Positions 1-39,115 of a DNA stretch of 64,000 nucleotides are shown here, one piece after another (position 1 is the stretch's first letter; every line of letters begins with the position of its first letter). This DNA comes from an uncultured Spirochaetales bacterium. Lineage in GTDB: Bacteria > Spirochaetota > Spirochaetia > JAFGDJ01. The stretch spans positions 7,037-71,036 of the forward strand of contig CAYPIQ010000005.1 of NCBI GenBank assembly GCA_964410865.1, read 5' to 3'. The notes under the pieces are model-generated. The model saw nothing but the letters and a program-made list of their open reading frames with translations. It ran no database searches and was not told the origin of the DNA. A program made the translations under genes and the position numbers.

Positions 1-921
1 GACCCCCGGAAGAAACTTTGGATACCCTTTATGCAAGTGATAGACCGGTCTCATGCTCGTTTTTTTGTTATGGAAAACGTTCCACAGCTTTTAGGTTCCC
101 TTGAATATAATGAGATTGAAGATTGGGCTTTTAGAAGAGGATTTAACGTATGGTCCGGGGTATTGTTAGCAGCCGATTATGGTGTAGCCCAGACAAGAAA
201 AAGAGCTTTTATCATTGGAGCAAAAGATGCCGATCCTAACTTATTTTTCCCGCCGGTTAAAACGCATTACAATCCTGAAAAACGACCCGATCAGCTAACC
301 CTTTTCACCGGTGCGTATGCGATGGACGCAGAAAGATGGCGAACTGTTCGAGATGTTATAGGAGATCTTCCCCTACCGGTTGGGACCGACATCAGAAATG
401 AACCACCTCCTCTTAATTTACATTTTGGAAGAAATCCGACGGAAAAGAGTTTAAGGCGGTATAAAGCGATACCGGAACAAGGTATGAACAGATTCGATTT
501 GCAGCGCATTGCTCCTGAATTGACCCCTGACTGTTGGATACATAAGAAATCAGGAGGAACTGATTTATTCGGTAGGTTATGGTGGGACAGGCCGGCTTTT
601 ACTATTCGTACGGAATTTTATAAACCGGAAAAGGGCAGATACCTGCATCCCGAGCAGCATCGGCCTATAACACACAGAGAAGCCGCAAGGTTTCAGTCTT
701 TTCCGGATGATTTCATTTTTAAAGGGACAAAGATTGAAATAGCCCGACAGATAGGAAACGCTGTTCCGCCTGTTCTGGCAAAGGCAATAGCCGATCAGGT
801 TTACAGAATGTGGGCTTATACCCATAATATAAAAATCGATGGATATATTTACAGAGAAGAAACGGCGAGAGATTATGTCTCGTGTCAAAAATCGCAATAC
901 GAGACAGGAGCTATTAGTTAG
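1..921 (+). CDS. dcm: DNA (cytosine-5)-methyltransferase, 5'-partial (frame open from base 1)
   Basis: C5-MTase motifs ENV (VI), RxR (VIII), T.REAARFQSFP (IX) and QIGNAVPP (X); catalytic PC motif lies upstream of the window. Confidence 0.93.
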   Translation, partial: DPRKKLWIPFMQVIDRSHARFFVMENVPQLLGSLEYNEIEDWAFRRGFNVWSGVLLAADYGVAQTRKRAFIIGAKDADPNLFFPPVKTHYNPEKRPDQLTLFTGAYAMDAERWRTVRDVIGDLPLPVGTDIRNEPPPLNLHFGRNPTEKSLRRYKAIPEQGMNRFDLQRIAPELTPDCWIHKKSGGTDLFGRLWWDRPAFTIRTEFYKPEKGRYLHPEQHRPITHREAARFQSFPDDFIFKGTKIEIARQIGNAVPPVLAKAIADQVYRMWAYTHNIKIDGYIYREETARDYVSCQKSQYETGAIS

Positions 922-1261
922 ATCGCTCCTACATAATCTAGGTTTTCGGTTTCGTCTTCATCGAAAAGATCTGCCTGGAACACCGGACATTGTACTTCCA
1001 AAATATAAAACCGTTGTATTTGTAAACGGCTGTTTCTGGCACGGCCATTCCTGTTCGCGTGGTAAATTGCCTGAATCAAATACATATTTCTGGGAGGCAA
1101 AAATTGAAAAGAATAAGAGGCGAGATCAAGGTAATTACAAACAGTTAAAAGCCCTTGGTTGGAAAATAGTAATAGTATGGACATGTGAAACCACATCAAC
1201 AGCCAAGTTAATTGAACTGGGGCATCGTTTATCGAAGGAAATTCCTCGAAACCTGGACTAA
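839..1261 (+). CDS. vsr: Very short patch repair endonuclease
   Basis: MDIFT...RREIMSRVK, GFRFRLH, LPGTPDIV, FVNGCFWHGH motifs; overlaps the 3' end of the MTase. Confidence 0.95.
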   Translation: MDIFTEKKRREIMSRVKNRNTRQELLVRSLLHNLGFRFRLHRKDLPGTPDIVLPKYKTVVFVNGCFWHGHSCSRGKLPESNTYFWEAKIEKNKRRDQGNYKQLKALGWKIVIVWTCETTSTAKLIELGHRLSKEIPRNLD

Positions 1262-1355: not shown

Positions 1356-2204
1356 TCAAGGGAACTTCTCCCCGTGTTGGGCAAAGATGTCCCTTGCCCG
1401 GGAAAAGAGTTCCTCGTACACGGCAACGGCGTCATCATCCAGGCCGAGTTTTTCTATATGTTTGCGGTATCGCCTTGTCTTTCGCAGTAGCGGGTTAAGG
1501 AACAACCCGGCGTTGAATGAACGGGTCAACGCGCGCATAACGGTAAAGAATTGTTTTGTATTCAGCACTTCGTTTTGCAGTAGCTCGGTTATATTCAAGT
1601 GTTTTACCAGCCATGCGGATTCAAGCTCGATGTCATCGGCTATATCCTCTCCTTCATCGAGTAGTCGTTCGGGACGGGCTCGGAAATGAATCGCCCGGTA
1701 AATCATTGACAGCACGGGGTCCGGAGTGACATCCGCGGTCCGGATGTTTTCTATTATACCATTTATACAGTTTCTGTAGGGCTCTACCTGCCGGTTAAGG
1801 GCATACGATCCCAGTGCGGCCACTAAGCCGCCGCCGATTAGAAGAACTGCCTCATCAAGGAACGGTAAAGGATCTGGTACGAAGATATTGAGAAAGCCAA
1901 GTACGGCGGAAATGATGCCGGAGGAAAAGAAGAGCCGCATTCGGGAGGCAAATTTTTCCGCCCGGGCTTTGAATTCCGATGAAAGGCCGTCTTTGACCTT
2001 TTCTATCGAAGAATCCGGACAACCTTCATAGGTCTTGATATGGAATGACTGCCGCAGAAGGATGAACTCCCCGCCTTTTTGCAGGGACCGGGGTGTAAGG
2101 GCCTGATATCGGTCGGATTGTTCCGATACGGGTGCCAGGTAGATTTCGATCTCTTCTTCCCAGGGCGGCAGAATTCCCCGGGACCTGAAAATACCGTATT
2201 TCAT
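1356..2204 (-). CDS. Hypothetical protein with central hydrophobic hairpin
   Basis: 282-aa ORF directly downstream of the TetR gene; hydrophobic segments FFSSGIISAVLGFLNIF and VLLIGGGLVAALG. Confidence 0.6.
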   Translation of the reverse strand: MKYGIFRSRGILPPWEEEIEIYLAPVSEQSDRYQALTPRSLQKGGEFILLRQSFHIKTYEGCPDSSIEKVKDGLSSEFKARAEKFASRMRLFFSSGIISAVLGFLNIFVPDPLPFLDEAVLLIGGGLVAALGSYALNRQVEPYRNCINGIIENIRTADVTPDPVLSMIYRAIHFRARPERLLDEGEDIADDIELESAWLVKHLNITELLQNEVLNTKQFFTVMRALTRSFNAGLFLNPLLRKTRRYRKHIEKLGLDDDAVAVYEELFSRARDIFAQHGEKFP

Positions 2205-2216: not shown

Positions 2217-2852
2217 CTACCACTGGAGATACTTCGGCAGTTTGTTCCGTTTTTCGATTTTCTCATTGCGTTTCCTGATGCGTATTTTACGCCTTATCCC
2301 CCTCTGTAGGAGCAAAAGGATATCACTGATGAGGGCGGCGCTGTTCTCCTCGTCGTCGATATGCAGGAGAATGGCTTCGAAGAGTGCTGAGATGAGCAGC
2401 CTGGGGTTATGATAAATCCCTATTCTGAAATGTCTGGTCATGCCCCCCCTTCTGATTATCTCCGCCAGGTGGGTTTTTATATGCTTTTCAAGGCTTTCTT
2501 CCCTCCTGCTCCACTCATAATATCCGGGAAAGAGGTATTTCTTGTTTCCTGTCATGACACCTTTCAGAATCGGACTGTTCTTCAGCCCCAGGGTGGTAAA
2601 GTGATAAAGGGCTTTGAGTTGATTCATGGGGGAGGTGACTTTGATAACGATCTTATCAGCCTCGAGTTTTCCCTGGTTCTCGATCGTTTCGAGGATAGCG
2701 ACATAGAAATCCTTTTTACTGTGAAAATAAGTATAAAAGCTTCCGGTGCTCAGGCCCGCGTGCCGGACAATATCATCTATACTGACATTCTTGTAGCCAT
2801 ACTCCGAGAAGAGACTGTTTCCTATTGTAAGCAGTTGATTTTTCTTTTCCAT
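2217..2852 (-). CDS. TetR/AcrR family transcriptional regulator
   Basis: N-terminal HTH LFSEYGYKNVSIDDIVRHAGLSTGSFYTYFHSK; start moved to ATG 2852 (MEKKNQLL). Confidence 0.9.
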   Translation of the reverse strand: MEKKNQLLTIGNSLFSEYGYKNVSIDDIVRHAGLSTGSFYTYFHSKKDFYVAILETIENQGKLEADKIVIKVTSPMNQLKALYHFTTLGLKNSPILKGVMTGNKKYLFPGYYEWSRREESLEKHIKTHLAEIIRRGGMTRHFRIGIYHNPRLLISALFEAILLHIDDEENSAALISDILLLLQRGIRRKIRIRKRNEKIEKRNKLPKYLQW

Positions 2853-2955
2853 ACCCCGTGAAGTAATAGTATACCATGGTTTTTCTCCATTCCTCAATAT
2901 TGCCTTGACAAGAAGCTGAAAGATTGTATCCTGACACGATACAGGGAGGAATGCC

Positions 2956-4218
2956 ATGGATCTGTTTGATAAATGTAACACCGACGCCGGTTATTTCGGG
3001 CGTTTCAGGCACCAGGGCGACAGTTACTTTACCCGGCCGGTTTTGGACCCCCAGCCGGGTAACAGGATGCTGTTCCACGGGAAAAAGCATATCATGTGGT
3101 CGGTCAATAATTATATAGGACTGGCCGGTCATGAAGAAATACGTAAAGAAGCCCTGGAAGCGGTGAAGGAATTCAGTGTAAGTGCTCCGATGGGTTCGAG
3201 AATGATGAGCGGAAATACCGAATACCATCTGGCTCTGGAAAATAAACTGGCGGATTTTTCCCGGAAAGAAGCCGCTTTTCTGTTCAATTATGGATACCTG
3301 GGAGTAATCGGCACTATTTCCTCTCTGGTTGGGCCGGAAGATACGGTCGTGATGGATAAACTGTCCCATGCATCCATCGTAGACGGTGTATTGCTTGCCA
3401 AGGCTTCGGGAGCAAAGATGAGGGTATTCAGGCATAACGACGCCTCTAATCTGGAGATGGTCCTCAAACGGGAAACCCGGGAAGGAAAGGGCGGTATTCT
3501 TGTTGTCGGTGAAGGCGTGTACGGTATGACGGGCGATCTGGCCGATCTGCCGGCGATAACGGAGGTCTGTAAAAAGTACGGCGCCCGGTTATTTATCGAC
3601 GACGCCCACGGATGGGGTGTTATGGGCGAGAACGGCCGAGGTACTGCCGATTACTTCGGGGTCCAGGATAAGGTCGATATTTATTTCGGAACCTTTGCAA
3701 AGGCTTTCGCTTCTATCGGCGGTTTTGCCGCGTCTTCCAAAAACGTGATCGACTGGATTATTTATAACGCCAGGACCCAGGTTTTTGCCAAGAGTCTGCC
3801 GATGGTCTATGTCCGGAGTCTTAAAAAGACCTTCGAGCTCGTCAAGGCCGGTGATGACCTCAGGGAAAAGATGTGGCAGAATTCCAACAAGCTCAAGGAA
3901 GGTATACGAGCCCTGGATTATTATGTCGGTGAAGGCGCTTCACCCATATGTGCCGTTTTTACCCCCAGCGGTAATGAAGAAGAAGGGCAGAAAATGGTTG
4001 CCTACCTCAGGGAGAAGGGGATTTTCGTTACCGCCGTTATTTATCCTGTAATTCCCCGGGGATTGATTATGTTCAGGATGATACCGACCGCCGTTCATAC
4101 GGATGAAGACATAGAAGTGACCATCAAGGTTTTCGCTGAAATGAAAACCGATCTCAAACTGAATCTTCCCGTCTCAACGGAAAACCTGGCAAATATTAAG
4201 AGAGCTTACGGGAAATAG
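2956..4218 (+). CDS. PLP-dependent alpha-oxoamine synthase; motifs resemble the cysteate acyltransferase (SulA/CapB) subfamily
   Basis: NNYIGL, SHASIVDG, DDAHG, GTFAK (PLP Lys249); subfamily-type motifs PMGSRMMSG, RTQVFAKSLPM, VIYPVIP..RMIPTA. Confidence 0.88.
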   Translation: MDLFDKCNTDAGYFGRFRHQGDSYFTRPVLDPQPGNRMLFHGKKHIMWSVNNYIGLAGHEEIRKEALEAVKEFSVSAPMGSRMMSGNTEYHLALENKLADFSRKEAAFLFNYGYLGVIGTISSLVGPEDTVVMDKLSHASIVDGVLLAKASGAKMRVFRHNDASNLEMVLKRETREGKGGILVVGEGVYGMTGDLADLPAITEVCKKYGARLFIDDAHGWGVMGENGRGTADYFGVQDKVDIYFGTFAKAFASIGGFAASSKNVIDWIIYNARTQVFAKSLPMVYVRSLKKTFELVKAGDDLREKMWQNSNKLKEGIRALDYYVGEGASPICAVFTPSGNEEEGQKMVAYLREKGIFVTAVIYPVIPRGLIMFRMIPTAVHTDEDIEVTIKVFAEMKTDLKLNLPVSTENLANIKRAYGK

Positions 4219-4222
4219 AACA

Positions 4223-5272
4223 TCAATCCCGAACTCTGCCCAGGGCAAGCAATTTAACAAGAAAATCGGGAAGAGGATTCTTTGTCTTCCTCTTCCTGAG
4301 ATCCAGATGCCACCCCAGTGATTTAATGATCGGGATTCGATGGGTCTCTACGAATTCTATAAGGGTTCCGTCGGGGTCTTCAATATAGGAAAAACGCCCG
4401 GCCGCTTCTCCCATATCGAAGGAGGTTCCACTGTCTACCGTGAAGGGGTGCCCCCCCCTTTCGCAACGGTTTTTCAGTTCATCCATGCCGTTGACGTCGA
4501 AGCAGAGGTGAATAAACCCCGCGTCCCCCCAGAACCTGTTCTCGAAGATCTTTCGCGGGGTTCTGTCTCTGCATTCTATAAGCTCTATGCGGCTTTTTCC
4601 GAATACATTCCCGAAAGCCCCTGAAGGCGGAACCGAGGGTTCCATGATAACCCGGCGGACTTTCTTTTCACCGCCGGGTACCGAAGCAATGTCCGGAAAA
4701 ACGGCGTCGGAGTCCAGCAGAACCCGGTCAAAGCCCAGAATTTCTCCATAGAAGGGCATGGCTTTGTCCATGTCACTGACACCGATGACACATCCGAAGG
4801 GACCCCCTGTGCAGCTTCGCCGAGATCCGAACCACTCGTCGTGTTCACACACTTCGAACATCAATCCGTTGGGATCTTTCAGATAGAAATGATACTTACC
4901 CCGGGGGTTTTGATTGAGTCCCCCTAGGAGTTCAACACCGCTTTTTTCGAAAGAAGCATAACAGGAAGCTATGTCCCGGCTCTTTATTTTGACAATATTG
5001 ATGCCCAGATCTCCGAGCTCGATCTGAAAAGGTACTGGAGTTGTCTTGCGGCTCGTGAACTGCCATATTTCGAAACCGCTGCCGCCGCTGAGGTTTATCG
5101 CCAGTACGGCATTCCTGGACTGCACTTCTCCCCCGGTATACTGAGTCATGAAGGGCGCTTCCGCTTCGTCCTGGAAAACCGGCACGTCCATACCGAAATG
5201 TTTGCGGTACCATTTCCACGATGATTCGACGTTATCCACCCCGATGCCGATCTGTTGTATTCCGCTTATCAT
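4223..5272 (-). CDS. Two-domain VOC (glyoxalase-like) family protein
   Basis: GIQQIGIGV, FYLKDPNG, IHLCFDV, SYIEDPDGTLIEFVE; start ATG 5272 or 5284. Confidence 0.85.
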   Translation of the reverse strand: MISGIQQIGIGVDNVESSWKWYRKHFGMDVPVFQDEAEAPFMTQYTGGEVQSRNAVLAINLSGGSGFEIWQFTSRKTTPVPFQIELGDLGINIVKIKSRDIASCYASFEKSGVELLGGLNQNPRGKYHFYLKDPNGLMFEVCEHDEWFGSRRSCTGGPFGCVIGVSDMDKAMPFYGEILGFDRVLLDSDAVFPDIASVPGGEKKVRRVIMEPSVPPSGAFGNVFGKSRIELIECRDRTPRKIFENRFWGDAGFIHLCFDVNGMDELKNRCERGGHPFTVDSGTSFDMGEAAGRFSYIEDPDGTLIEFVETHRIPIIKSLGWHLDLRKRKTKNPLPDFLVKLLALGRVRD

Positions 5273-7825: not shown

Positions 7826-8018
7826 TCTCTTTCTCCTTTATCACCTCGATCGCAAAATCGGGGCACCGGAGTTCACAGAGCATGCAGTAGATACACTCCT
7901 TTTCTCTCGGCGCCGTTACGATCCCTTCTTCATCGAGTTCGAGCACCTTCTTCGGGCAGAAGGCGACACAGATCCCGCAGCCTTTACACCAGTAACGGTT
8001 GATCTGAATCATGGTCAC
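7818..8018 (-). CDS. korD: 2x[4Fe-4S] ferredoxin, oxidoreductase delta subunit
   Basis: CKGCGICVAFCP and CIYCMLCELRCP; first gene of the delta-alpha-beta-gamma operon. Confidence 0.92.
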   Translation of the reverse strand: MTMIQINRYWCKGCGICVAFCPKKVLELDEEGIVTAPREKECIYCMLCELRCPDFAIEVIKEKENV

Positions 8019-8300
8019 TTATTATGGAATACCTTTGCCCCTTCATCAAGACTCTTTTTCATCAACTTGCCCGATTACTGGAAGTGTAGCCTGATTAGTA
8101 TTCGGTTCCACGATTGAAGGGGAATCGGACATTCCATTCGGTTCCGTCGGAACGGTTGTACTCCAGGGAGCTCTCCGAGCTTTATCCTTTATATTAGCAT
8201 ACGGTAAGGATATAATAATCCGGATACCGATGCAAATTTACTGAAGCCGGCTTACATTCCAACAGAAGGCCGGGTATACTGGGTAACCGGAGGTATCCGT

Positions 8301-8897
8301 GTGTTGATTCCCGACGGGACTGCAGAGTATGAACTGGTTGTAAAAAGGTCCCGGTTTCTCGCATGGGCAGGTTATATCGAATCCACGGAAGCAGCCAGGG
8401 ATGAGGTCAAACGGCTCAAGGGATTTTATAGCGACGCGACCCACGTGGTCCATGCCTGCATAACCGGCCCCGCCGGCGACCTGTTCAGTGTGAGCGACGA
8501 CCGGGAACCCTCGGGTACCGCGGGACGGCCGGTGCTGGATATTCTTAAAGGGAGCGGTATTACCAATATCCTGGTGACGGTAACCCGCTGGTTCGGCGGA
8601 ACAAAGCTTGGTACAGGCGGTCTGGTAAAGGCCTACGGCGATGCGGCCCGGAGCGTACTGGAACGGCTGCCGGTACGGGAACTGGAGGTTCGCCGGGATT
8701 TTACGGTGCGGTTGGTATACCGCTATTACGAACCCGCGGTCCGTTTGCTGGAGCAGCATGGTGGTACGGTAACAGCCAACGAGTTTGCCGAAGAAGTGGT
8801 TCTGCGGGGAACAATCGGGGAAGCCGCCGCAGAGCGTTGGGAACAGGATGTTAAAGATTTGACCGGCGGGGGAAGTGAGGTGAAGTGGAAAAGGTAA
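8301..8897 (+). CDS. yigZ: YigZ/IMPACT family protein
   Basis: VKRSRF, ATHVVHA, SDDREPSGTAGRP, VTRWFGGTKLGTGGLVKAY. Confidence 0.92.
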   Translation: MLIPDGTAEYELVVKRSRFLAWAGYIESTEAARDEVKRLKGFYSDATHVVHACITGPAGDLFSVSDDREPSGTAGRPVLDILKGSGITNILVTVTRWFGGTKLGTGGLVKAYGDAARSVLERLPVRELEVRRDFTVRLVYRYYEPAVRLLEQHGGTVTANEFAEEVVLRGTIGEAAAERWEQDVKDLTGGGSEVKWKR

Positions 8898-8934
8898 AAT
8901 AGCCCGTCGCGTCAATACTAAATCTAGTTCGCTT

Positions 8935-9185
8935 TATTTCGCTGCGGTGTTCGGTTACCTCTATCTCTATCGGGGGAATGTCAAAGACCTGCCGCCGTCG
9001 GTAATCTACTACCGGCTCCTGCGAGAGATCATTCCTACAGTGGCTGCACACAGAATGATGGTGCTCTATTATCCTGTCGGGATTCTCGACCATCTTGAGT
9101 GTCGAGCCTTTGTGCCCCTCATGGCCTCCGGGTTTTTTCCCCGATCGTTTCCTGCTCTGTTTCGGCGGTTTTTTCATTCAGTCGG
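8935..9185 (-). pseudogene. IS66-family transposase N-terminal fragment
   Basis: KKPGGHEGHKG and zinc finger CSHC...RRQVFDIPP..EVTEHR typical of IS66 TnpC; truncated at both ends. Confidence 0.8.
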
Positions 9186-9899: not shown

Positions 9900-11084
9900 A
9901 TGGTTTTGGAAATCAGTGGAGACGGTAAAAAATCACTCCAGATAAAAACCCCATATCATGAATCTGTCGTAAATGCCATGCGCACCATTCCGGGGAGACA
10001 TTGGTCTGCCGTAAAAAAGGTTTGGTTAATCCCGGATACACCCTTTCACCGTGAAAAGCTGCTTTCTTCCCTGTATGAAACGAAACTCTTTACCTATCAG
10101 CCGAACCGGAAAGATGATTCAACTAATCAGAAGCATCTGTACCTTCGATTCCATCAGGCTGCCCGTACCCGTCATTTTAGCTCGAGGACGGAAAAGAGTT
10201 ACCGACAATGGATACAAAGATACCTCCACTACTATAACGGGCTCGAACCGGAAAATCTCACAGGGTCACATATCAACAAATTCCTTTCGTATCTTGCCGT
10301 GAAAAGAAAGGTAAGTCCCTCTACCCAGAATCAGGCTTTGGCTGCGCTTTTCTTCCTCTATAAACAGGTGCTCAACAAAAAGGTTGATGATCCTGATTCG
10401 ATCATTCGAGCGGAAAAACCTAAACGGCTTCCTGTTGTTTTAAGCAAAACAGAAGTGAAAAAGGTCATCTCACATGTACCCGAGGACAAAAAGCTAATAG
10501 CCGCTCTTCTGTATGGAACCGGAATGAGGTTGATGGAGTGTTTACAGCTCCGCGTAAAGGATATTGATTTAGAGTGTAATGAAATACGAATCAGGGATGC
10601 GAAAGGCGCAAAGGACCGGATCACGATGATCCCGGAATCACTGAAAACAGAATTGAAAAAGCAATTAACTCGCTCACAGTTGATTCACAAGCAGGATCGT
10701 TCTGCAGGGTGGGGCCGTGTACAGCTTCCCTATGCAATTGAGCGAAAATATCCGAATGCATCTGCAGAATGGCAATGGCAATGGGTCTTTCCCCAGCAAA
10801 AGCGATGGAACAATCCTGAGACTGGAGAAGAAGGAAGACACCACATAGATCCCTCTCTCGTGCAGAAAGCAGTAAAGAAAGCCGTTCTTGCAAGTGGAAT
10901 AACCAAGCGAGCCTCCTGCCATACATTCAGGCACTCATTTGCAACACATCTTTTGGAAGACGGCTATGACATACGAACAGTTCAAGAGCTGTTGGGCCAC
11001 AGTGATGTAAAAACAACAATGATCTATACCCATGTGCTGAATCGAGGTCCACAAGGAGTAAAAAGCCCCCTGGATGGGTTATGA
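9900..11084 (+). CDS. intI: Integron integrase with N-terminal extension (394 aa)
   Basis: SAM-like domain (SPSTQNQALAAL), GMR, KGAKDR, HTFRHSFATHLL, LGH, IYTH, plus the IntI-specific insertion GWGRVQLPYAIERKYPNA..WQWQWVFP. Confidence 0.96.
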   Translation: MVLEISGDGKKSLQIKTPYHESVVNAMRTIPGRHWSAVKKVWLIPDTPFHREKLLSSLYETKLFTYQPNRKDDSTNQKHLYLRFHQAARTRHFSSRTEKSYRQWIQRYLHYYNGLEPENLTGSHINKFLSYLAVKRKVSPSTQNQALAALFFLYKQVLNKKVDDPDSIIRAEKPKRLPVVLSKTEVKKVISHVPEDKKLIAALLYGTGMRLMECLQLRVKDIDLECNEIRIRDAKGAKDRITMIPESLKTELKKQLTRSQLIHKQDRSAGWGRVQLPYAIERKYPNASAEWQWQWVFPQQKRWNNPETGEEGRHHIDPSLVQKAVKKAVLASGITKRASCHTFRHSFATHLLEDGYDIRTVQELLGHSDVKTTMIYTHVLNRGPQGVKSPLDGL

Positions 11085-11266
11085 TATTAAGACATTGGAA
11101 AAGGAGAATTATACGGACCCGGATAAAATGGTTCTTTATTATGTGGGAAACCTATACTGTTTCTGAGAAGTGAATTACACAGTAACCAGAATATATTCAT
11201 AGCAGATTATACGGACAAATGGATACCAACCGGTGTTTATACGGGTCAGTAGAATTTATGTTATAT
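11085..11266 (+). other. attI region of the integron
   Basis: Core G/TTATAT at 11260-11266; GTTATATAGCAA is the exact reverse complement of TTGCTATATAAC at the end of cassette 1; three TTATACGG direct repeats upstream. Confidence 0.8.
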
Positions 11267-11316
11267 AGCAAAAAAAATTAAAGTAATATAATGAATAATT
11301 TAATAAGGGAATATAG

Positions 11317-12369
11317 ATGATAGAAATCTATTTTGATGAAGCAGGTAACACTGGACATGATTTATTAAATTCTGAGCAGCCCCTCTATGTTCTAAGTTCA
11401 ATAAAAATATTAAATGATGTAGCAAAGCAAAAATTAGAAAGTAGTTTTACTGATATTGATCTATTGCATTTTAAAAGGAAAAAGAATTCTGCCTCTGGAA
11501 GAAAAGAGATTCTTGATTTTTGGGATAAAAACTTTGATTTTTTGAACGAAAATAGTAAAAGTATAGTAATCCATAAAAAATACATGATTGTCTGTCAAAT
11601 GTTAAATTATTTGGTAGAACCACAGTTATATGAAGATGGAATTGATTATTATGATGCCGGGATGAATATTGGTCATTCAAATATGATGTATATGTGCATT
11701 CCTGGTTTTTGTGGTAGTGGTTTAGCCAATATGCTTTATAAAGCATTTATAAATATGTTTAAAATTAAAGATCAAAAATCAATAATTACATTTTATAAAC
11801 TATTAGATTTAATGGAGAAAAAATCTAGTTCGGAAGAATTTAAAACTGATATATTCATTCTTAAAAGATCGATAACAGAAATAAGTGAAACTCTACAAAT
11901 TGTCAATAAATATGTTTTAGATCCTTCTATGCATTCATTAATTTCTTTGATTACTCTATGGAATAATGAATTAGAAGAGGAATTCAATGTATTTCATGAT
12001 AGATCAAATACAATATTGAATCAAAAAGAAATCTTGGATTTTCTCAACGATATAGAAGGTGATGAACAAAGTATTGGATATGGAGAGTTTAAAGCAACAT
12101 TTCCTATCAAAATGGATAGCTTTCGATTTATTAGTAGTGATAACTTTTCAATAAAAATAGTAGATATAATTAGCAGCAGCTTATTATATGTATCAATAAA
12201 TGATGATGATTTTGCTAAAGAGCTTAATAAAATAATATCTAATTGGAAGTGGACTAATAATATTATGCCTTCTTCAAATGTAGAACCTATTCCAGAAAGA
12301 ATAAAACGACAAGGAGATATTGATTCATTAGATTTCTTTGCAAAAAAGATAATTGAAAAAGGATTGTAA
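11317..12369 (+). CDS. Integron cassette 1: DUF3800-like (RNase H fold) protein
   Basis: N-terminal IYFDEAGNTG and C-terminal IKIVDII motifs; very AT-rich; bounded by attI and attC1. Confidence 0.78.
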   Translation: MIEIYFDEAGNTGHDLLNSEQPLYVLSSIKILNDVAKQKLESSFTDIDLLHFKRKKNSASGRKEILDFWDKNFDFLNENSKSIVIHKKYMIVCQMLNYLVEPQLYEDGIDYYDAGMNIGHSNMMYMCIPGFCGSGLANMLYKAFINMFKIKDQKSIITFYKLLDLMEKKSSSEEFKTDIFILKRSITEISETLQIVNKYVLDPSMHSLISLITLWNNELEEEFNVFHDRSNTILNQKEILDFLNDIEGDEQSIGYGEFKATFPIKMDSFRFISSDNFSIKIVDIISSSLLYVSINDDDFAKELNKIISNWKWTNNIMPSSNVEPIPERIKRQGDIDSLDFFAKKIIEKGL

Positions 12370-12376
12370 AATTGCT

Positions 12377-12511
12377 ATATAACAACCACTTGGAGTTGAC
12401 CTGGCGGTGAATATGGCAAAGAGATTGTTGATTTGGAGAACAGGGGTTACAATGGTTAAAGTGATAGGGCTAAGTAAGGACAGCGCCAGGCAACTCAAGT
12501 GAACGTTATCT
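12377..12511 (+). repeat. attC1 (135 bp)
   Basis: R'' ATATAAC, L'' CACTTgGAGTTGaCCTGGCG, L' CGCCAGGCAACTCAAGTG, R' GTTATCT; two extrahelical bases. Confidence 0.93.
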
Positions 12512-12530
12512 TGAAAAAAGAGGAATATAG

Positions 12531-13445
12531 ATGAATAACTTACCTATTAAAATATGTCCAAAATGTAAAAATAATATGATTAATAATAATGAAGATGTTA
12601 TAACAGCTCAATCTTACAATGATTGTATAAGAAAATGTTTAAGATGCGGAATTGGATATTCAAACGCAAAATACAATCCCAAAATAATTTATAAGAATAT
12701 TGAAGATAATATCGCTAATGAAATCAAAGATAAGAATATTGAAGATATTATCAATAAATCTCTAAACATCAGAAATAGACCAACAAAATTAAATAAAGCT
12801 AAAATTTCGACATCAGAAGATGCATTAACCTATTCTTTTATGAAATATCTAATAGAAAGTAATCAAATAACAAAGCTGATAAAAATAATTGATTCTACAA
12901 TAAAAGAATTTAATAATATTGAAGTATACTTATGGGGAGTAAATATCGTTAATAATAATATTGAAAAGATTGAGACCCTTAAGACTATCTTAGTTAAAAA
13001 ATATAAGGAAAATTTAAATTCATTATCTGAACCGGATATAATAATTACAGGAGATACATTTACTATAATTATTGAAGTAAAATATAAAAGTCCAAATGAA
13101 GTGAAAAATACAAATAGTCTTCATAAATATATACGCAATAATTTTTATGATGATTTAGAAAAAGCAATAGAATGTGAGCATTATGAGTTAATAAGAAATT
13201 GGACAATACTAAATGAATTAGAAGAAGACAATGCAATATTAGTCAATTTAGGGGATATAAAACTATTTAATGATAAAAATAAATTAAAGCTAGAATATTT
13301 TGAAAAATCATTAAACCAAAATAATAAAAGAAAATTTATAAAATTAAAATGGGAAGAATTATTTCATTCTGATATATATTTCTCAGATACAATGAAAAAA
13401 TATTTAAAGAAGAAATTTTTCAAGATAACAACCACTTGGAGCTGA
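12531..13445 (+). CDS. Integron cassette 2: Zn-ribbon plus PD-(D/E)xK nuclease
   Basis: CPKC and CLRC pairs; SEDALT; SEPDIII...IIIEVKYKS; stop codon falls inside attC2. Confidence 0.75.
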   Translation: MNNLPIKICPKCKNNMINNNEDVITAQSYNDCIRKCLRCGIGYSNAKYNPKIIYKNIEDNIANEIKDKNIEDIINKSLNIRNRPTKLNKAKISTSEDALTYSFMKYLIESNQITKLIKIIDSTIKEFNNIEVYLWGVNIVNNNIEKIETLKTILVKKYKENLNSLSEPDIIITGDTFTIIIEVKYKSPNEVKNTNSLHKYIRNNFYDDLEKAIECEHYELIRNWTILNELEEDNAILVNLGDIKLFNDKNKLKLEYFEKSLNQNNKRKFIKLKWEELFHSDIYFSDTMKKYLKKKFFKITTTWS

Positions 13446-13555
13446 CATGGCGGTGAATGTGGCAAAGACATTGTGTTTTTGAAGGACTGGAGTTACAATT
13501 GCTAAGAAAGTGTTTTACTCGATGCGGCGCCATGCAGCTCAAGTGAACGTTAAAT
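13423..13555 (+). repeat. attC2 (133 bp)
   Basis: R'' AGATAAC, L'' CACTTgGAGCTGaCATGGCG, L' CGCCATGCAGCTCAAGTG, R' GTTAAAT; homologous to attC1 with compensatory changes. Confidence 0.93.
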
Positions 13556-14761: not shown

Positions 14762-16573
14762 ATGACGCAAACAGAAAATACGACAGCGGTAATAAGAGAT
14801 AGGATAGAGAATATATACAAGTATCTCTATCTACACAAAGAATACATAAACAGGTTGAATGTTTTTCCTGTTCCAGATGGCGATACCGGTCTTAATATGG
14901 CGCTGACCATGCAAGGTGCTTTGGCAAATATGCGCGATTATGAAGAAGCATCAATGCCGGCGGGAGAATATTTGAAAAATTTTGCTGAACAAATGCTGCT
15001 CAACAGTAGAGGGTGTTCAGGAGTCATCTTATCCCTTTACTGTCAGGGCGTCTCACAAGTAATTGAGAATAACGACTTTTCTAAAGAAAATATATATAGA
15101 GCTCTTGAAAACGGATATAAAAACGCGTACGAGGGCACCGAAGATCCGAGGGAAGGAACCATGCTTACGTTAATGCGTGAACTTAAAGACAAGTATGGTG
15201 AACTTATGAAGGGAGACGATGACCCTGTAAATATCACGAAACAATGTATCCCGTATTTAAAAGACGTTCTCAACAAAACTCCCGATATGTTGCCGGTACT
15301 AAAACAAGCCGGAGTTGTAGATTCCGGTGGCGCGGGATTCCTGATTATTCTCGAGGGAATTAATAGAAAGTTAAAAGGCAACGAATTGACTCTTAGAAGC
15401 TTGCCGGTTTCAATTATACTGAATATAAATAAAATTGCAAAAAAGTATCTCGACGGCAGACTTTCAAAATTAAATAAAAAAACTATCGAAGCTCTGCTTA
15501 CAAATATTGAGACCGAAAAGTTGCATAATTCTCGGTTGTCCAAAATAATGGAAGATATTGGGGGGGTCGTTCGGAATCTGCAGGATAATGGGAATCGATT
15601 GTCGAAGAAAGAAACAATTATTAATAGTCTAGAGGATATGGATGGTTCATGGAATCCTGAAATTAAATTCAAATATTGTACGGAATTCGTTTTAGAAACA
15701 GACCGAATATCATCAAAAGAGCAAATAAAAGGAATCATCGGCGGATACGGAGATAGTCTGATAATACTCAACAGCGGCGATAAATATAAAGTTCATATAC
15801 ACACCGATAAACCGGAAGCGGTTTTTAAAGATGTTTCAAAATACGGCAACCTTATATTTACCAAAGTCGATGATATGAACAAACAACACAAAAATCTCGT
15901 GAGTAACGATTCAATCGATTACGAACGAGAGAAAAGTGTTTTTTGTTTAGTTTCCGGAAAAGGATTTGCCGAAATCCTGAAAAAGCTCGGGGCCGATGAT
16001 GTATTCTGCTACGGAAAAAACAAGCCGTCCGTGGAACGGATCGTTAAAGAGCTAGACAGACTGAGAACCAAAAATATAATCGTCGCTGCCGACGACAAAG
16101 ATATTCTGATGGCGCTCAAATATGCTGGTTCGCTGAGTAAGTCGAATATACACATTGTCGAAGCCGATAATGTAATCTCGCTTATTAGCATGTTGCTAAA
16201 TATTTCAAAGGATTTAGATATTACCAATACAATTGAATCGATAATGAATAGTCTGAATAATATTCGTTTTTTTGGAATTGCTAAGGCCGTCAGAAATACT
16301 GCAACGGAATATGGTATAAAAGTTAATAAAAATGAGTTTTTTGCAATGTACAACGGCTCAATTATTCTTTCCGACAAGAACCTGAAAACACTGATGATTA
16401 AGGCAATTCAAAAACTGAGAAAAGATGAAAGTCTGATATCGTTATACCGGGGCGTCCGTGCCAAAAGAGAAAAGAGTTTTATTCCGAAACTGAAAGAAAC
16501 GTTTCCCGATTGTGAAATTGAAGAATATTACGGTGGGCAATATAAATTCGATTATTACGTAACCTTGGAGTGA
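14762..16573 (+). CDS. fakA: DAK2-domain fatty acid kinase catalytic subunit
   Basis: LNVFPVPDGDTGLNM, PREGTMLT, VVDSGGAG, YCTEF, KVHIHT, KVDDM, YYGGQ. Confidence 0.92.
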   Translation: MTQTENTTAVIRDRIENIYKYLYLHKEYINRLNVFPVPDGDTGLNMALTMQGALANMRDYEEASMPAGEYLKNFAEQMLLNSRGCSGVILSLYCQGVSQVIENNDFSKENIYRALENGYKNAYEGTEDPREGTMLTLMRELKDKYGELMKGDDDPVNITKQCIPYLKDVLNKTPDMLPVLKQAGVVDSGGAGFLIILEGINRKLKGNELTLRSLPVSIILNINKIAKKYLDGRLSKLNKKTIEALLTNIETEKLHNSRLSKIMEDIGGVVRNLQDNGNRLSKKETIINSLEDMDGSWNPEIKFKYCTEFVLETDRISSKEQIKGIIGGYGDSLIILNSGDKYKVHIHTDKPEAVFKDVSKYGNLIFTKVDDMNKQHKNLVSNDSIDYEREKSVFCLVSGKGFAEILKKLGADDVFCYGKNKPSVERIVKELDRLRTKNIIVAADDKDILMALKYAGSLSKSNIHIVEADNVISLISMLLNISKDLDITNTIESIMNSLNNIRFFGIAKAVRNTATEYGIKVNKNEFFAMYNGSIILSDKNLKTLMIKAIQKLRKDESLISLYRGVRAKREKSFIPKLKETFPDCEIEEYYGGQYKFDYYVTLE

Positions 16574-17454
16574 GTAGCAGAATGGATAAGAGGATTTTGA
16601 TCATTACCGGTGATAATCTGGGCCTTTCGAGGGATCAAATAGATTACCCGGATGTAGAGATTTTAAAATTTCCGGTGGTCGTAGGCGATAAAGAATATCG
16701 GGAAAGCAGCGAATATACGGCACAATGGCTCAATGAGAAATTTCTGAAGGAAAAAGTCGTTGCAAAGTCGTCTGCGATCGTAAGCGGAGAGCTGGTCGAA
16801 ATAGTAGAAAGAAATAAGGATAAGTATGACTTGATAATCCATGTCGTGATGAGCAGCGTGATGTCGGCAACGACCTTGGCTATAGCAAACAAGGTGAAGG
16901 ACATGTATGAAAATACCATTCCGATCATCAATATCGACAGCCGGCAGGTTATGGGGGGCACGGGGAATGTAGTCTTGGGTGTCGTCGATATAATCAAGGA
17001 AACAACCAATGCGGATGATATTATAAAATTGGCGCAGGAGCTTGTTCACAATACCTTTAGCTATTTTGTTTTGGCGGATCTGAACTATCTCTATAAGGGC
17101 GGCAGAATCGGAAAAGCACAAGCGTTGATGGGTTCTGTTTTGCGTATTATTCCGATTGTTGGACTGATGGGGGATGATAGAGACGGCCAAATAGTCCCCG
17201 TGGGAAGAGGAAGAACCTTCAAACAAGCAAATTCACACATCCTCGAGTTAATAAATGCCAAAATGAAGGAAAAATCGGCAAGGGGAGTGAAAAGATTGAA
17301 TATGATCGGGTTTGACGATAATAAAGATGCAGTTGCCGATTTGGAAACAAAGTTAAAAACAATTCCCTGTGACGATTTCGTTGTGGGGAAGGCGGATCTT
17401 GTCGGTGCCGTGTACGCAGGGCCGAAATCGTATGCGGTGTCTGTAACTCTTTGA
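16570..17454 (+). CDS. fakB: DegV-family fatty acid binding protein
   Basis: SSVMSAT, IDSRQ, DLNYLYKGGRIGKA..LMGSVL.IIPI, VYAGP; overlaps the fakA stop. Confidence 0.88.
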   Translation: MSSRMDKRILIITGDNLGLSRDQIDYPDVEILKFPVVVGDKEYRESSEYTAQWLNEKFLKEKVVAKSSAIVSGELVEIVERNKDKYDLIIHVVMSSVMSATTLAIANKVKDMYENTIPIINIDSRQVMGGTGNVVLGVVDIIKETTNADDIIKLAQELVHNTFSYFVLADLNYLYKGGRIGKAQALMGSVLRIIPIVGLMGDDRDGQIVPVGRGRTFKQANSHILELINAKMKEKSARGVKRLNMIGFDDNKDAVADLETKLKTIPCDDFVVGKADLVGAVYAGPKSYAVSVTL

Positions 17455-17455
17455 A

Positions 17456-18067
17456 ATGGGAAATATGACCATGTATTTGACCTATGTGATATGTTTATTA
17501 TCAGGGTATCTCACAGGTTCGATATTGTTTGCCTATGTGATTACCAAATTGGTAAAAGGCGAAGATATAAGGAATCTGGGTAACCACAATCCGGGAGCGG
17601 CGAACACTTTTAAAAGCACGGGCAAGTTTTGGGGTATCTTGACGGGAGTTTTGGACGGTTCAAAGGCATTAATACCAATGCTCTTTGCAAGCCGTTTCTT
17701 TGAGGTATCCACGATTTCCGTTGGGCTCATCGGTATCGGAGCAATAATCGGGCATGGTTATCCGCTCTTTTTTAATTTCAAGGGAGGACGTGCCGCTGGG
17801 ACCTTAATGGGAATATATTTATTTTTTATTCCTAAAGAACTGCTAATTGCTTTTGTTATTATCCCATCGTTGGTTTTTTCGCTGATTAAAAAATACCGAA
17901 GTTTTTGGACGCCGTTTGGGATAATCGTGTTCAGTGCTGTCACATCGTTGTTTCTTGATCACACCACAGACGTAAAAATCATGGTTTGCGCGAGCGGCAT
18001 TGTTGGATTGTATTTTAATAGACATTTTCTCCCAAAAATAGTAAAAGCACTCACGCGACACGGATGA
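17456..18067 (+). CDS. plsY: Acyl-phosphate:glycerol-3-phosphate acyltransferase
   Basis: GSILFAY, DIRNLGNHNPGAAN, DGSKA, GHGYPLFFNFKGGRAA. Confidence 0.9.
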   Translation: MGNMTMYLTYVICLLSGYLTGSILFAYVITKLVKGEDIRNLGNHNPGAANTFKSTGKFWGILTGVLDGSKALIPMLFASRFFEVSTISVGLIGIGAIIGHGYPLFFNFKGGRAAGTLMGIYLFFIPKELLIAFVIIPSLVFSLIKKYRSFWTPFGIIVFSAVTSLFLDHTTDVKIMVCASGIVGLYFNRHFLPKIVKALTRHG

Positions 18068-33994: not shown

Positions 33995-34011
33995 TAATAG
34001 GACCAGATTTC

Positions 34012-34625: not shown

Positions 34626-34628
34626 CAC

Positions 34629-35078
34629 ATGAAGACGGAAAGTCCCAATATGCAGGGTGAGAAAAAATTCGATTTTTTCGACTTTCTCTATAGATGGGGA
34701 ACGATCATCACTATCGTTCTCCTGATTATTTTTTTCAGCGTTAAGACGAAATCCTTTCTTTCAACGAAGAACATAATCAATATTCTCCGTTCCATCTCGA
34801 TTGTGACGGTTATCGCCATCGGTGTATCCACTTTTATGGTAAACACCCTCCTGGACACCACCATGACGGATTCGGAACACCGGAAGCAGTTTACCGGCCG
34901 GCTGGAAGAAACCATCCGGGATGTGATGCGCCTGTTCGTGGAGAAGTGGAAGAAGAGGTGGGGAAAAAAGGTTTCCGAGGTAACGGCACGGTACGACGGC
35001 TTCGCCGAAGGGTATCTCTCGGATGTTCTCGCGGACACTGCCGGGGAGTATCCCCGGCCGGAGGGGATCGGCGCATGA
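34629..35078 (+). pseudogene. ABC permease N-terminus fused in frame to a methylthioribose kinase (MtnK) fragment
   Basis: FFSVKTKSFLSTKNIINILRSISIVTVIAIG followed by FTGRLEETI...YLSDVLADTAG. Confidence 0.6.
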
Positions 35079-39058: not shown

Positions 39059-39115
39059 ATCATTCCCCCTTGCTTCTTTTTGCGTGAACCATATACATCT
39101 GTCGGTGGAACGAAC

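What the first reader, a model, noticed from the sequence alone, without database searches (positions are those of the whole stretch)
2956..4218. Sulfonolipid-type (cysteate acyltransferase, SulA/CapB-like) enzyme in an apparently non-Bacteroidota genome
Seen: an alpha-oxoamine synthase fold with PLP Lys249 (GTFAK) and a second Lys279 in RTQVFAKSLPM, plus PMGSRMMSG and VIYPVIP..RMIPTA. Recalled: these motifs match the Flavobacterium/Alistipes cysteate acyltransferase subfamily. There a Lys about 30 residues after the PLP lysine binds the cysteate sulfonate; SPT, BioF and Kbl have small residues at that position. Inference: this organism may make capnine-type sulfonolipids, which are mainly described in Bacteroidota.
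Basis: partly seen in the sequence, partly recalled or inferred. Interest (0 to 1): 0.72.

Follow-up and report, generated by a model that had tools for sequence, protein, structure and literature searches.

The report
Sulfonolipid-type condensing enzyme in a spirochaete
A free-living spirochaete carries a well-conserved gene for the enzyme that starts sulfonolipid (capnine) synthesis in Bacteroidota, which points to a lipid pathway never reported for spirochaetes; the gene that supplies its substrate cysteate is missing from this locus.

Summary
ORF 2956-4218 (+) encodes a 420-aa alpha-oxoamine synthase with PLP Lys249, Lys279 and the quoted motifs. It belongs to the SulA/CapB cysteate-C-fatty-acyltransferase branch:
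- Bit scores are 355-360 to the two solved cysteate acyltransferases, against 230 or less for SPT, Kbl and BioF.
- Every SulA active-site residue is kept, including the discriminating Lys281.
- The grouping with SulA/CapB has 100% NJ bootstrap support.

The host is a Spirochaetales bacterium, and a large clade of free-living spirochaetes shares the gene. In 14 of 17 informative related loci a bona fide cysteate synthase lies directly upstream. In Oceanispirochaeta the two genes sit in an operon with cysD, cysNC and cysH. This is strong context evidence that the clade uses cysteate.

Three caveats apply:
- The window and its closest relatives have only TetR-AOS-VOC. No cysteate synthase or reductase occurs in the 64 kb.
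- The published lipidome of Oceanispirochaeta M1/M2, apparently the strains that carry the full operon, lists no capnines.

Verdict: a new member of a known family in a new phylum. The substrate is well supported for the clade. The lipid product is unproven.

The parts
2956..4218 (+). sulA/capB-like gene: PLP-dependent alpha-oxoamine synthase, predicted cysteate-C-fatty acyltransferase (420 aa)
   Evidence: ORF. PDB phmmer gives 360 and 355 bits to 28eh and 7u7h, against 230 to SPT. All NCBIfam Kbl, BioF and SPT models score below their curated cut-offs. NJ tree with 100% bootstrap. The best Foldseek hit of the AF2 model is 7u7h.
3700..3702 (+). codon of Lys249, the PLP Schiff-base lysine (equivalent to SulA Lys251)
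   Evidence: Motif position. Residue mapping to SulA. Invariant in 33 spirochaete homologues.
3790..3792 (+). [quoted passage not shown]
   Evidence: Alignments. SPT has Ala, BioF Thr and Kbl Asn at this column. Role according to PMC9304779.
3187..3201 (+). PMGSR loop: one-residue insertion shared with SulA/CapB and absent from SPT, Kbl and BioF
   Evidence: Column comparison of 46 sequences and of 50%-identity representatives.
2217..2852 (-). divergently transcribed TetR-family regulator (211 aa from the internal ATG)
   Evidence: Pfam TetR_N. Found in the same position in 17 related loci. Gene calls of 211 aa in L026 and L027.
2853..2955 (.). 103-bp divergent intergenic region. It holds a TTGACA...TATCCT promoter-like pair and the RBS. 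This is where the cysteate synthase gene sits in most relatives.
   Evidence: Sequence read. tblastn with cysteate synthase finds no remnant here or anywhere else in the window.
4223..5272 (-). convergent two-domain VOC/glyoxalase-superfamily protein (349 aa) of unknown function, a conserved neighbour of SulA-like genes
   Evidence: Pfam Glyoxalase x2. Adjacent to the AOS in 15 loci, including Bacteroidota L020 and L022, in Rhodothermaceae RA and in Oceanispirochaeta. The AF2 model gives only generic VOC fold hits.
1356..2204 (-). 282-aa hypothetical membrane-associated protein downstream of the TetR gene. Conserved only in the window's own lineage, so its membership in the unit is uncertain.
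   Evidence: Same position in L026 and L027. No family hit.

Best explanation
The ORF encodes a SulA/CapB-type cysteate-C-fatty acyltransferase in a Spirochaetales bacterium.

Proposed mechanism, by homology with Alistipes SulA:
- The enzyme is a homodimer with PLP held as an internal aldimine on Lys249.
- L-cysteate displaces Lys249 to give the external aldimine.
- A long-chain, probably iso-branched, acyl-ACP binds.
- His138 and Arg374/Asn51 assist Claisen condensation and decarboxylation.
- Lys279 from the partner subunit closes the active site.
- The product is 3-ketocapnine (a 2-amino-3-oxo-alkane-1-sulfonate), the first committed intermediate of sulfonolipids.

The gene is transcribed divergently from a TetR regulator. 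It is paired with a conserved VOC-fold protein of unknown role.

Shown: family placement, catalytic residues, phylogeny, purifying selection, and physical linkage of the orthologues to cysteate synthase and sulfate activation in related spirochaetes.

Inferred: the cysteate substrate, the acyl donor, the product and its fate as a membrane lipid. In this lineage the cysteate synthase is not at the locus, so cysteate must come from another locus, another route or uptake.
For: 1. Sequence scores. The protein scores 360 and 355 bits against the two solved cysteate acyltransferases, and 230 bits or less against SPT, Kbl, BioF and ALAS. Every NCBIfam equivalog for Kbl, BioF and SPT falls below its curated cut-off.

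2. Active site. All SulA active-site residues map one to one: N51, G113, Y114, H138, T246, K249, K279, R374. The PMG[AS]R insertion, AKSLPM and YPVIP signatures are shared with SulA/CapB and absent from SPT, Kbl and BioF.

3. Phylogeny. In an NJ tree with 300 bootstraps, the spirochaete clade has 100% support, the Bacteroidota SulA/CapB clade 100%, and their union against SPT, Kbl and BioF 100%.

4. Cysteate synthase linkage. In 14 of 17 informative spirochaete loci, a cysteate synthase lies immediately upstream on the same strand. It scores 467-478 bits against TIGR03844 (cut-off 324.9) and 487 bits against PDB 9k3c. The arrangement mirrors the adjacent capA-capB genes of Capnocytophaga, which have consecutive accessions.

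5. Operon context. Oceanispirochaeta and a JGI contig carry cysD-cysNC-cysteate synthase-AOS-cysH. In Oceanispirochaeta a BCKDH-FabH fusion follows.

6. Selection. dN/dS is 0.02-0.10 within the window's lineage.

7. Structure. The top Foldseek hits of the AF2 model are the 7u7h chains.
Against: - No cysteate synthase, PAPS/APS genes or SDR-type reductase were found in the 64-kb window.
- The 84-95% identical relatives also lack the adjacent cysteate synthase.
- A check of nine spirochaete cysteate synthases found none in the accession block of the related MAG. This check is inconclusive.
- Lys at the 279 position also occurs in uncharacterised AOS clades, for example FAAL-ACP-AOS fusions. The residue alone is therefore not proof of cysteate use.
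- The intact polar lipids of Oceanispirochaeta M1T/M2 are reported as hexose-DAG, PC, PG, a phospho-sugar lipid and cardiolipins. No capnines are listed, although the same laboratory reports capnines in Bacteroidota.
- P0078 is annotated as shared by 'unclassified Oceanispirochaeta', a node that holds only sp., sp. M1 and sp. M2.
- No biochemical data exist for any spirochaete member.
Confidence: 0.68

Rival explanations
1. The enzyme belongs to the SulA-like branch, but in this lineage it condenses a different amino acid (serine, phosphoserine, homocysteate or another anionic amino acid). It would then make a sphingoid-like or other amino-ketone base rather than 3-ketocapnine. The loss of the linked cysteate synthase would mark this change of function.
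For: - The cysteate synthase is absent from the locus in the window, L026, L027 and L028. It is also absent in L001, L012 and L024.
- Lys at the 279 column, or the PMG insertion, also occurs in uncharacterised clades with H, E or R variants and with fused FAAL-ACP modules. This shows that the branch is functionally diverse.
- How SulA selects cysteate is unresolved in the literature.
Against: - All 27 inspected active-site and signature columns are the same in the window lineage as in spirochaete orthologues that do have the adjacent cysteate synthase. The only exceptions are two variable columns (206 and 209) and Ser/Ala at 77.
- L012 and L024 lack the synthase yet are nested among very close relatives that have it. 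Adjacency is therefore simply variable.
- Strong purifying selection gives no sign of relaxed or shifted constraint.
Confidence: 0.16
2. The chemistry is as in the best explanation (cysteate plus acyl thioester). The product, however, is not a bulk capnine-type membrane sulfonolipid. It would be a conditionally made or low-abundance sulfonated metabolite, further modified by the conserved VOC enzyme. This rival concerns only the fate of the product and overlaps with the best explanation on the enzyme itself.
For: - No capnine appears in the published lipidome of Oceanispirochaeta M1T/M2, although a complete operon is present in 'unclassified Oceanispirochaeta' genomes.
- A TetR repressor gene is next to the gene in 17 loci.
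- The VOC partner is conserved across Spirochaetota, Bacteroidota and Rhodothermaceae and has no assigned role in the known four-step pathway.
Against: - The lipidome came from one growth condition (pyruvate medium) and reports positive-ion adducts only. Absence from a table is weak evidence.
- The operon context, with sulfate activation plus a branched-chain primer BCKDH-FabH fusion, looks like investment in a bulk lipid.
Confidence: 0.25
3. The protein is an ordinary housekeeping alpha-oxoamine synthase: glycine C-acetyltransferase (Kbl), as JGI annotates its relatives, or BioF.
For: JGI names many homologues 'glycine C-acetyltransferase'. The best NCBIfam hit by E-value is the Kbl model.
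Against: - The Kbl model scores 313.7 bits against a cut-off of 460. BioF scores 310.9 against 426.45.
- Identity to E. coli Kbl and BioF is only 30-32%, against 43-47% to SulA/CapB.
- The tree separates the protein from Kbl and BioF with 100% support.
- No tdh or bio genes are adjacent.
- The characteristic residues differ at the 79-80 and 279 positions.
Confidence: 0.03

Closest known systems
SulA, cysteate acyl-ACP transferase of Alistipes finegoldii (alfi_1224; PDB 7U7H; Radka et al. 2022, PMC9304779)
   Same: - 44% identity over 396 aligned residues.
- Same length and same fold (Foldseek TM 0.85-0.89).
- Identical PLP-binding and catalytic residues.
- Lys281 equivalent, PMGxR insertion and YPVIP motif all present.
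   Different: - The host phylum is Spirochaetota, not Bacteroidota.
- Ala78 and Gly255, whose backbone carbonyls hold Lys281, are Ser76 and Ser253 here.
- The gene is flanked by TetR and VOC genes.
- No biochemical data exist for this protein.
CapB, cysteate-C-fatty acyltransferase (PDB 28EH/28FA; capA-capB pair of Capnocytophaga ochracea, Liu et al. 2022 as cited in PMC12927429)
   Same: - Best sequence match in the PDB (360 bits, 43% identity).
- In most related spirochaetes the gene is directly preceded by a cysteate synthase. In C. ochracea capA and capB have consecutive accessions.
   Different: - In the window itself the cysteate synthase partner is missing.
- Some spirochaete operons additionally carry cysD, cysNC, cysH and a BCKDH-FabH fusion.
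Bacterial serine palmitoyltransferase (Sphingobacterium multivorum 3A2B; Sphingomonas paucimobilis 2JG2)
   Same: Same fold and same catalytic cycle. The conserved Asn/His/Lys/Arg tetrad is present.
   Different: - Only 32% identity.
- SPT has Ala where this protein has Lys279 and lacks the PMG insertion.
- NCBIfam SPT equivalogs score 223-301 bits against cut-offs of 500-670.
- SPT lies on the other side of a 100%-supported split.
Uncharacterised FAAL-ACP-AOS fusion proteins (e.g. Rhodothermaceae bacterium RA, CP020382.1; representatives P0122, P0124, P0125)
   Same: - The AOS domain is 51-52% identical to the window protein, closer than characterised SulA.
- It carries PMGSR and FAKSLPM.
- In Rhodothermaceae RA it is followed by the same VOC protein family.
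   Different: - These are 1050-1130-aa fusions with an N-terminal fatty-acyl-AMP ligase and a carrier domain.
- In Rhodothermaceae RA a fatty-acid hydroxylase lies next to the gene.
- Their function has not been tested.

Membership tests
SulA/CapB cysteate-C-fatty acyltransferase | Fold-type I PLP alpha-oxoamine synthase with a Schiff-base lysine | tested here: met
   PF00155 at E 1e-42. Lys249 aligns with SulA Lys251. The AF2 model matches 7u7h with TM 0.85-0.89.
SulA/CapB cysteate-C-fatty acyltransferase | Conserved catalytic set Asn53, His140, Arg376, plus PLP contacts Gly115, Tyr116 and Thr248 (SulA numbering) | tested here: met
   These map to N51, H138, R374, G113, Y114 and T246. All are invariant in 33 spirochaete homologues.
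SulA/CapB cysteate-C-fatty acyltransferase | Lys at the SulA-281 position (Ala in SPT), proposed by Radka et al. as the discriminator | tested here: met
   Lys279 lies in FAKSLPM. SPT has A, BioF and ThAOS have T, and Kbl has N. Caveat: Lys also occurs in uncharacterised neighbouring clades.
SulA/CapB cysteate-C-fatty acyltransferase | Groups with biochemically characterised members to the exclusion of SPT, Kbl and BioF | tested here: met
   NJ tree of 46 sequences and 417 columns. The split has 100% support in 300 bootstraps. There is a 125-130-bit gap in the PDB phmmer scores. No maximum-likelihood tree could be run.
SulA/CapB cysteate-C-fatty acyltransferase | A cysteate supply in the same genome (cysteate synthase CapA/Cys) | tested here: inconclusive
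   Met for orthologues: 14 of 17 informative loci, plus L034 and L035, have an adjacent TIGR03844 cysteate synthase. Not found in the 64-kb window or on the contigs of the closest relatives. The rest of the genome is not available.
SulA/CapB cysteate-C-fatty acyltransferase | Specific condensation of L-cysteate with acyl-ACP to give 3-ketocapnine | not testable with these tools
   This needs an enzyme assay. It has been done only for the Alistipes, Flavobacterium, Chryseobacterium, Capnocytophaga and Algoriphagus enzymes.
SulA/CapB cysteate-C-fatty acyltransferase | Sulfonolipid or capnine present in the organism | not testable with these tools
   No culture of this organism is available. The only relevant literature datum is negative: the Oceanispirochaeta M1T/M2 polar-lipid table lists no capnine.
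Serine palmitoyltransferase (bacterial SPT) | Passes the NCBIfam SPT equivalog cut-offs and has a small residue (Ala) at the SulA-281 column | tested here: not met
   Scores of 301, 290 and 223 bits against cut-offs of 500, 640 and 670. The protein has Lys, not Ala. It is separated from SPT by a 100%-supported split.
Glycine C-acetyltransferase (Kbl) / 8-amino-7-oxononanoate synthase (BioF) | Passes the NCBIfam equivalog cut-offs and has tdh or bio gene context | tested here: not met
   Kbl scores 313.7 against 460, and 267 against 493. BioF scores 310.9 against 426.45. No tdh or bio genes are nearby. Identity to the E. coli enzymes is 30-32%.

The most novel reading that the evidence does not exclude
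Free-living spirochaetes (Oceanispirochaeta, Alkalispirochaeta, Spirochaeta and this lineage) make a cysteate-derived sulfonated long-chain base or lipid that standard lipidomics has missed. The conserved two-domain VOC protein would be an undescribed extra step of sulfonolipid metabolism. It lies next to SulA-like genes in Spirochaetota, Bacteroidota and Rhodothermaceae.
Probability: 0.22. Interest if true: 0.75.

Novelty: new member of a known kind. Interest (0 to 1): 0.55.

Why it matters
Sulfonolipids (capnine, sulfobacins, RIFs) are treated as a hallmark of Bacteroidota. They matter for gliding motility, outer-membrane biology, host TLR4 signalling and choanoflagellate development.

A conserved SulA-type gene in a second, unrelated phylum would widen the taxonomic source of these lipids in marine, soda-lake and hypersaline settings. 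In that phylum the gene is often fused into an operon with cysteate synthase and sulfate activation. It would also caution against using sulfonolipids as Bacteroidota biomarkers.

The question can be tested directly, because cultured strains (Oceanispirochaeta, Alkalispirochaeta) carry the operon. The mismatch with the one published lipidome, and the unexplained conserved VOC partner, are concrete leads.

For the window's own organism the claim is weaker, because the cysteate source is unknown.

Tried and rejected
- **Remnant of a cysteate synthase in the window.** tblastn over all 64 kb found nothing better than E 0.8.
- **Cysteate synthase in the related MAG GCA_016932135.1.** I compared NCBI accession blocks: P0004 is MBN2050888.1, against nine spirochaete cysteate synthases. 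None matched. Only the top 120 hits were visible, so the result is inconclusive.
- **Reductase, N-acyltransferase or sulfate-activation genes in the window.** Pfam scans of about 55 ORFs found none. Genes downstream in the Alkalispirochaeta loci are housekeeping: rpsB, tsf, frr, uppS, cdsA, rseP.
- **Function of the VOC partner.** There was no NCBIfam hit and no significant PDB sequence hit. The AF2 model (pLDDT 92.9) gave only generic two-domain VOC matches, with TM 0.58 or less and identity 16% or less. No function can be assigned.
- **Literature on spirochaetes.** Searches linking spirochaetes to sulfonolipids or cysteate synthase found nothing relevant.
- **Technical failures.** The Biopython distance bootstrap timed out and was replaced by a numpy implementation. 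One Pfam call failed on a bad coordinate.
- **Foldseek as a discriminator.** TM-scores do not separate SulA from SPT or Kbl; all are 0.82-0.89. The fold search adds little beyond the sequence evidence.
- **Horizontal-transfer signal.** I considered whether the gene's G+C content differs from its surroundings. Nothing stood out. The direction of transfer between phyla cannot be resolved with seven Bacteroidota sequences.
Full report
**1. The observation**

The window has one ORF at exactly 2956..4218 on the + strand: 420 aa, ATG start. A GGAGG lies 7 nt upstream.
- GTFAK ends at Lys249.
- RTQVFAKSLPM spans 273-283 and contains Lys279.
- PMGSRMMSG is at 78-86.
- VIYPVIP starts at 361 and RMIPTA at 374.

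Pfam assigns the aminotransferase class I/II fold (E 1e-42).

**2. Which alpha-oxoamine synthase is it?**

NCBIfam places the protein below the curated cut-off of every named family:

| Model | Score (bits) | Cut-off (bits) |
|---|---|---|
| Kbl | 313.7 | 460 |
| BioF | 310.9 | 426 |
| SPT (three models) | 301, 290, 223 | 500, 640, 670 |

Against all PDB sequences, two hits stand apart. They are 'Cysteate-C-fatty acyltransferase' 28eh (360 bits) and Alistipes finegoldii SulA 7u7h (355 bits). SPT follows at 230 bits, Kbl at 216 and BioF at 169.

The HMMER alignments put FAKSLPM opposite FAKSLPM (28eh) and YAKSLPM (7u7h). SPT has FSASMTP there.

A pairwise mapping to SulA numbering gives:

| SulA residue | Window residue |
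|---|---|
| Asn53 | N51 |
| Gly115 / Tyr116 | G113 / Y114 |
| His140 | H138 |
| Thr248 | T246 |
| Lys251 | K249 |
| Lys281 | K279 |
| Arg376 | R374 |

In a 46-sequence alignment, all spirochaete homologues and all SulA/CapB-type sequences share three features: a one-residue insertion (PMG[AS]R), AKSLPM, and YPV[IV]P. SPT, Kbl, BioF and ThAOS lack all three. At column 279 those enzymes have A, N, T and T respectively.

The NJ tree used Kimura distances, 417 columns and 300 bootstraps. It gives 100% support for three groupings:
- the spirochaete clade;
- the Bacteroidota SulA/CapB clade;
- their union against SPT, Kbl and BioF.

Identities of the window protein:

| Compared with | Identity |
|---|---|
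| SulA | 44.8% |
| CapB | 43.2% |
| a Bacteroidales homologue | 46.9% |
| SPT | 31.9% |
| Kbl | 31.8% |
| BioF | 29.6% |

An AlphaFold model (pLDDT 89.8) finds the 7u7h chains first in the PDB (E 3e-44). TM-scores do not separate the AOS subfamilies.

**3. What the literature says about the lysine**

Radka et al. [quoted passage not shown] The authors conclude that the side chain walls off the active site, and that how cysteate is selected remains open. They propose Lys281 as a marker to tell sulfonolipid from sphingolipid condensing enzymes. Its use of the residue as a marker is legitimate.

The exhaustive search of 50%-identity representatives shows that the marker is not exclusive. Neighbouring uncharacterised clades with the PMG insertion have K, H, E or R at this column. 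Several of them are 1050-1130-aa FAAL-ACP-AOS fusions.

**4. The organism**

- The closest proteins (84-95% identity) come from metagenomes and from a MAG named Spirochaetales bacterium.
- About a hundred further hits at 61-67% are Spirochaetaceae, Alkalispirochaeta, Spirochaeta and Oceanispirochaeta.
- Bacteroidota homologues are 43-47% identical.
- The MAG contig JAFGDJ010000169.1 is syntenic with the window: hypothetical, TetR, AOS, VOC, 2-oxoacid:ferredoxin oxidoreductase gamma/beta/alpha, IMPACT.

'Non-Bacteroidota' is therefore confirmed.

**5. Genomic context: the strongest functional evidence**

I clustered the ORFs of 25 related loci. This shows a conserved unit: a divergent TetR gene, then a 430-450-aa gene, then the AOS on the same strand, then a convergent two-domain VOC protein.

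The 430-450-aa gene is a cysteate synthase. It scores 467-478 bits on the equivalog model TIGR03844 (cut-off 324.9) and 487 bits to PDB 9k3c 'Cysteate synthase'.

- It is present directly upstream of the AOS in 14 of the 17 spirochaete loci that have upstream sequence.
- In C. ochracea, capA and capB have consecutive accession numbers, so the arrangement mirrors a characterised system.

In Oceanispirochaeta (GCA_013166645.2) and on a JGI contig the operon is larger: cysD, cysN-cysC, cysteate synthase, AOS, cysH-type PAPS reductase. The genes overlap by 4 nt or are separated by gaps of 1-114 nt. In Oceanispirochaeta a 1111-aa fusion follows, made of branched-chain 2-oxoacid dehydrogenase E1, a lipoyl domain and FabH. 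The VOC gene comes after it. This is a self-contained route from sulfate through PAPS, sulfite and cysteate to condensation with a (branched) acyl chain. It is hard to reconcile with any substrate other than cysteate for the clade.

**6. What is different in the window**

- The TetR gene (2217-2852, -) is separated from the AOS by only 103 bp. There is no cysteate synthase and no remnant of one anywhere in the 64 kb.
- The 95% and 84% relatives have the same stripped arrangement. So do L001, L012 and L024.
- L012 and L024 are nested among very close relatives that do have the synthase. Adjacency is therefore evolutionarily labile.
- The gene is not decaying. dN/dS is 0.097 against L026 and about 0.03 against L027. 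The inspected active-site columns are unchanged.
- Pfam and NCBIfam scans of essentially all ORFs of 150 aa or more found no SDR reductase, PAPS reductase or sulfate adenylyltransferase.
- An attempt to locate a cysteate synthase in the related MAG through NCBI accession blocks was negative but inconclusive.

The source of cysteate in this organism is unknown.

**7. Evidence against a capnine-type lipid**

The protein P0078, which heads the full Oceanispirochaeta operon, is annotated as shared by 'unclassified Oceanispirochaeta'. That taxonomy node contains only Oceanispirochaeta sp., sp. M1 and sp. M2. Strains M1T and M2 (O. piezotolerans) were analysed by UHPLC-HRMS in Yadav et al. 2024 (PMC11129491).

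- Their Table S46 lists hexose-DAG, PC, PG, acyl-hexose-DAG, an unknown phospho-sugar lipid and acyl/ether cardiolipins. It has no capnine and no sulfur-containing formula.
- The same paper reports capnines for Bacteroidota isolates.
- The major fatty acids of these strains are iso-C13:0, C14:0, iso-C15:0 and C16:0, which fits the branched-chain primer module.

The negative result comes from one medium and from positive-ion adducts, so it is weak. It still means that sulfonolipid production by spirochaetes is unproven. No paper in the searchable library links spirochaetes to sulfonolipids or cysteate synthase. NCBI's pipeline already names the spirochaete cysteate synthases, but it calls the AOS only a 'PLP-dependent aminotransferase family protein'. 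JGI calls it 'glycine C-acetyltransferase'.

**8. The VOC partner**

- The 349-aa two-domain VOC protein (4223-5272, -) lies next to the AOS in 15 loci here, including two Bacteroidota loci (47-49% identity).
- Its best homologues outside the lineage (53-60%) are from Rhodothermales, Bacteroidia and Lewinellaceae.
- In Rhodothermaceae bacterium RA it follows a FAAL-ACP-AOS fusion and a fatty-acid hydroxylase. The AOS domain of that fusion is 51% identical to the window protein and carries PMGSR and FAKSLPM.
- In a Lewinellaceae genome the VOC gene is not next to an AOS.
- It has no NCBIfam or PDB sequence match. A confident model gives only generic VOC fold matches.

It is a candidate accessory enzyme of sulfonolipid-type pathways, with no assignable reaction.

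**9. Verdict**

The gene is a new member of the SulA/CapB family in a new phylum.

- Best explanation: a cysteate-C-fatty acyltransferase that makes 3-ketocapnine (confidence about 0.68 for this gene, higher for the clade).
- Main rival: a changed amino-acid substrate in the lineage that lost the linked cysteate synthase (about 0.16).
- A housekeeping Kbl or BioF role is essentially excluded.
- Whether the product becomes a bulk membrane sulfonolipid is open.

Interest is moderate, and the question can be tested directly in cultured relatives.

Noticed in passing
window 9900-13552: A chromosomal integron. The integron integrase at 9900-11084 (+) scores 453.5 bits on TIGR02249 (cut-off 265). 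An AT-rich stretch follows (34.5% G+C at 12-16 kb). It holds two orphan ORFs (11317-12369 and 12531-13445), each followed by a ~137-nt attC-like repeat (12372-12508 and 13418-13552, 82-92% identical). The cassettes lie downstream of intI, the 'inverted integrase' layout that I recall from Treponema-type integrons.
   Followed up: partly
window 4223-5272 (-); L020, L022, L031, L034: A two-domain VOC protein of unknown function is a conserved neighbour of SulA-like genes in Spirochaetota, Bacteroidota and Rhodothermaceae. It has no family or structure match that would suggest a reaction.
   Followed up: partly
L034 5905-16677 (Oceanispirochaeta, GCA_013166645.2); L035 5948-11982: Operon cysD - cysNC - cysteate synthase - SulA-like AOS - cysH. 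In L034 it is followed by a 1111-aa fusion of branched-chain 2-oxoacid dehydrogenase E1 (alpha and beta), a lipoyl domain and FabH (KAS III). I have not seen this fusion architecture described.
   Followed up: partly
L031 1692-7059 (Rhodothermaceae bacterium RA, CP020382.1): A FAAL-ACP-AOS fusion of 1126 aa whose AOS domain carries the SulA signatures. A fatty-acid hydroxylase and the VOC protein follow it. This could be the condensing module of halocapnine-type sulfonolipids known from Salinibacter relatives (my recollection, not tested).
   Followed up: no
window 37125-45957 (-): A cluster of three MttB-family methyltransferases (39116-40588, 41292-42845, 43713-45143). With them are a corrinoid-binding protein (40601-41311), a pterin-binding methyltransferase (42863-43678), a Met_synt_B12-like protein (45244-45957) and MTHFR (37125-38048). 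A sodium:solute symporter lies at 46173-47942. This looks like a quaternary-amine (glycine betaine or TMA type) demethylation system. The best MttB scores 434 bits against the 525 cut-off of the TMA methyltransferase model.
   Followed up: partly
window 32681-36130: ORF 32681-33994 joins a RuBisCO-like/MtnW-like fragment (profile positions 89-291 only) to a DeoR/SorC-type sugar-binding domain. It may be a fusion, a frameshift or a pseudogene. An MtnA/eIF-2B-family isomerase lies nearby at 34946-36130.
   Followed up: no
window 48981-52265 (+): Two consecutive H+-pyrophosphatase ORFs. The first is 351 aa and matches the profile in four broken stretches. The second is full length (731 aa, 888 bits). 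This suggests a degraded duplicate next to an intact gene.
   Followed up: no
window 14762-18067 (+) and 59629-61398 (+): A FakA - DegV(FakB) - PlsY operon (fatty-acid kinase route to acyl-phosphate) and a long-chain fatty-acid-CoA ligase-like gene. These are possible sources of activated acyl chains. Neither is linked to the AOS locus.
   Followed up: no
window 31-1261 (+) and 7826-9177: A Dcm-type C5 cytosine methyltransferase (5' end cut by the window edge) overlaps a Vsr mismatch endonuclease at a site where relatives have a phosphofructokinase gene. The PAS histidine kinase found between the Kor genes and IMPACT in relatives is missing. ORF 8851-9177 (-) looks like an N-terminal fragment of an IS66-type transposase, judging by its sequence alone.
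   Followed up: no
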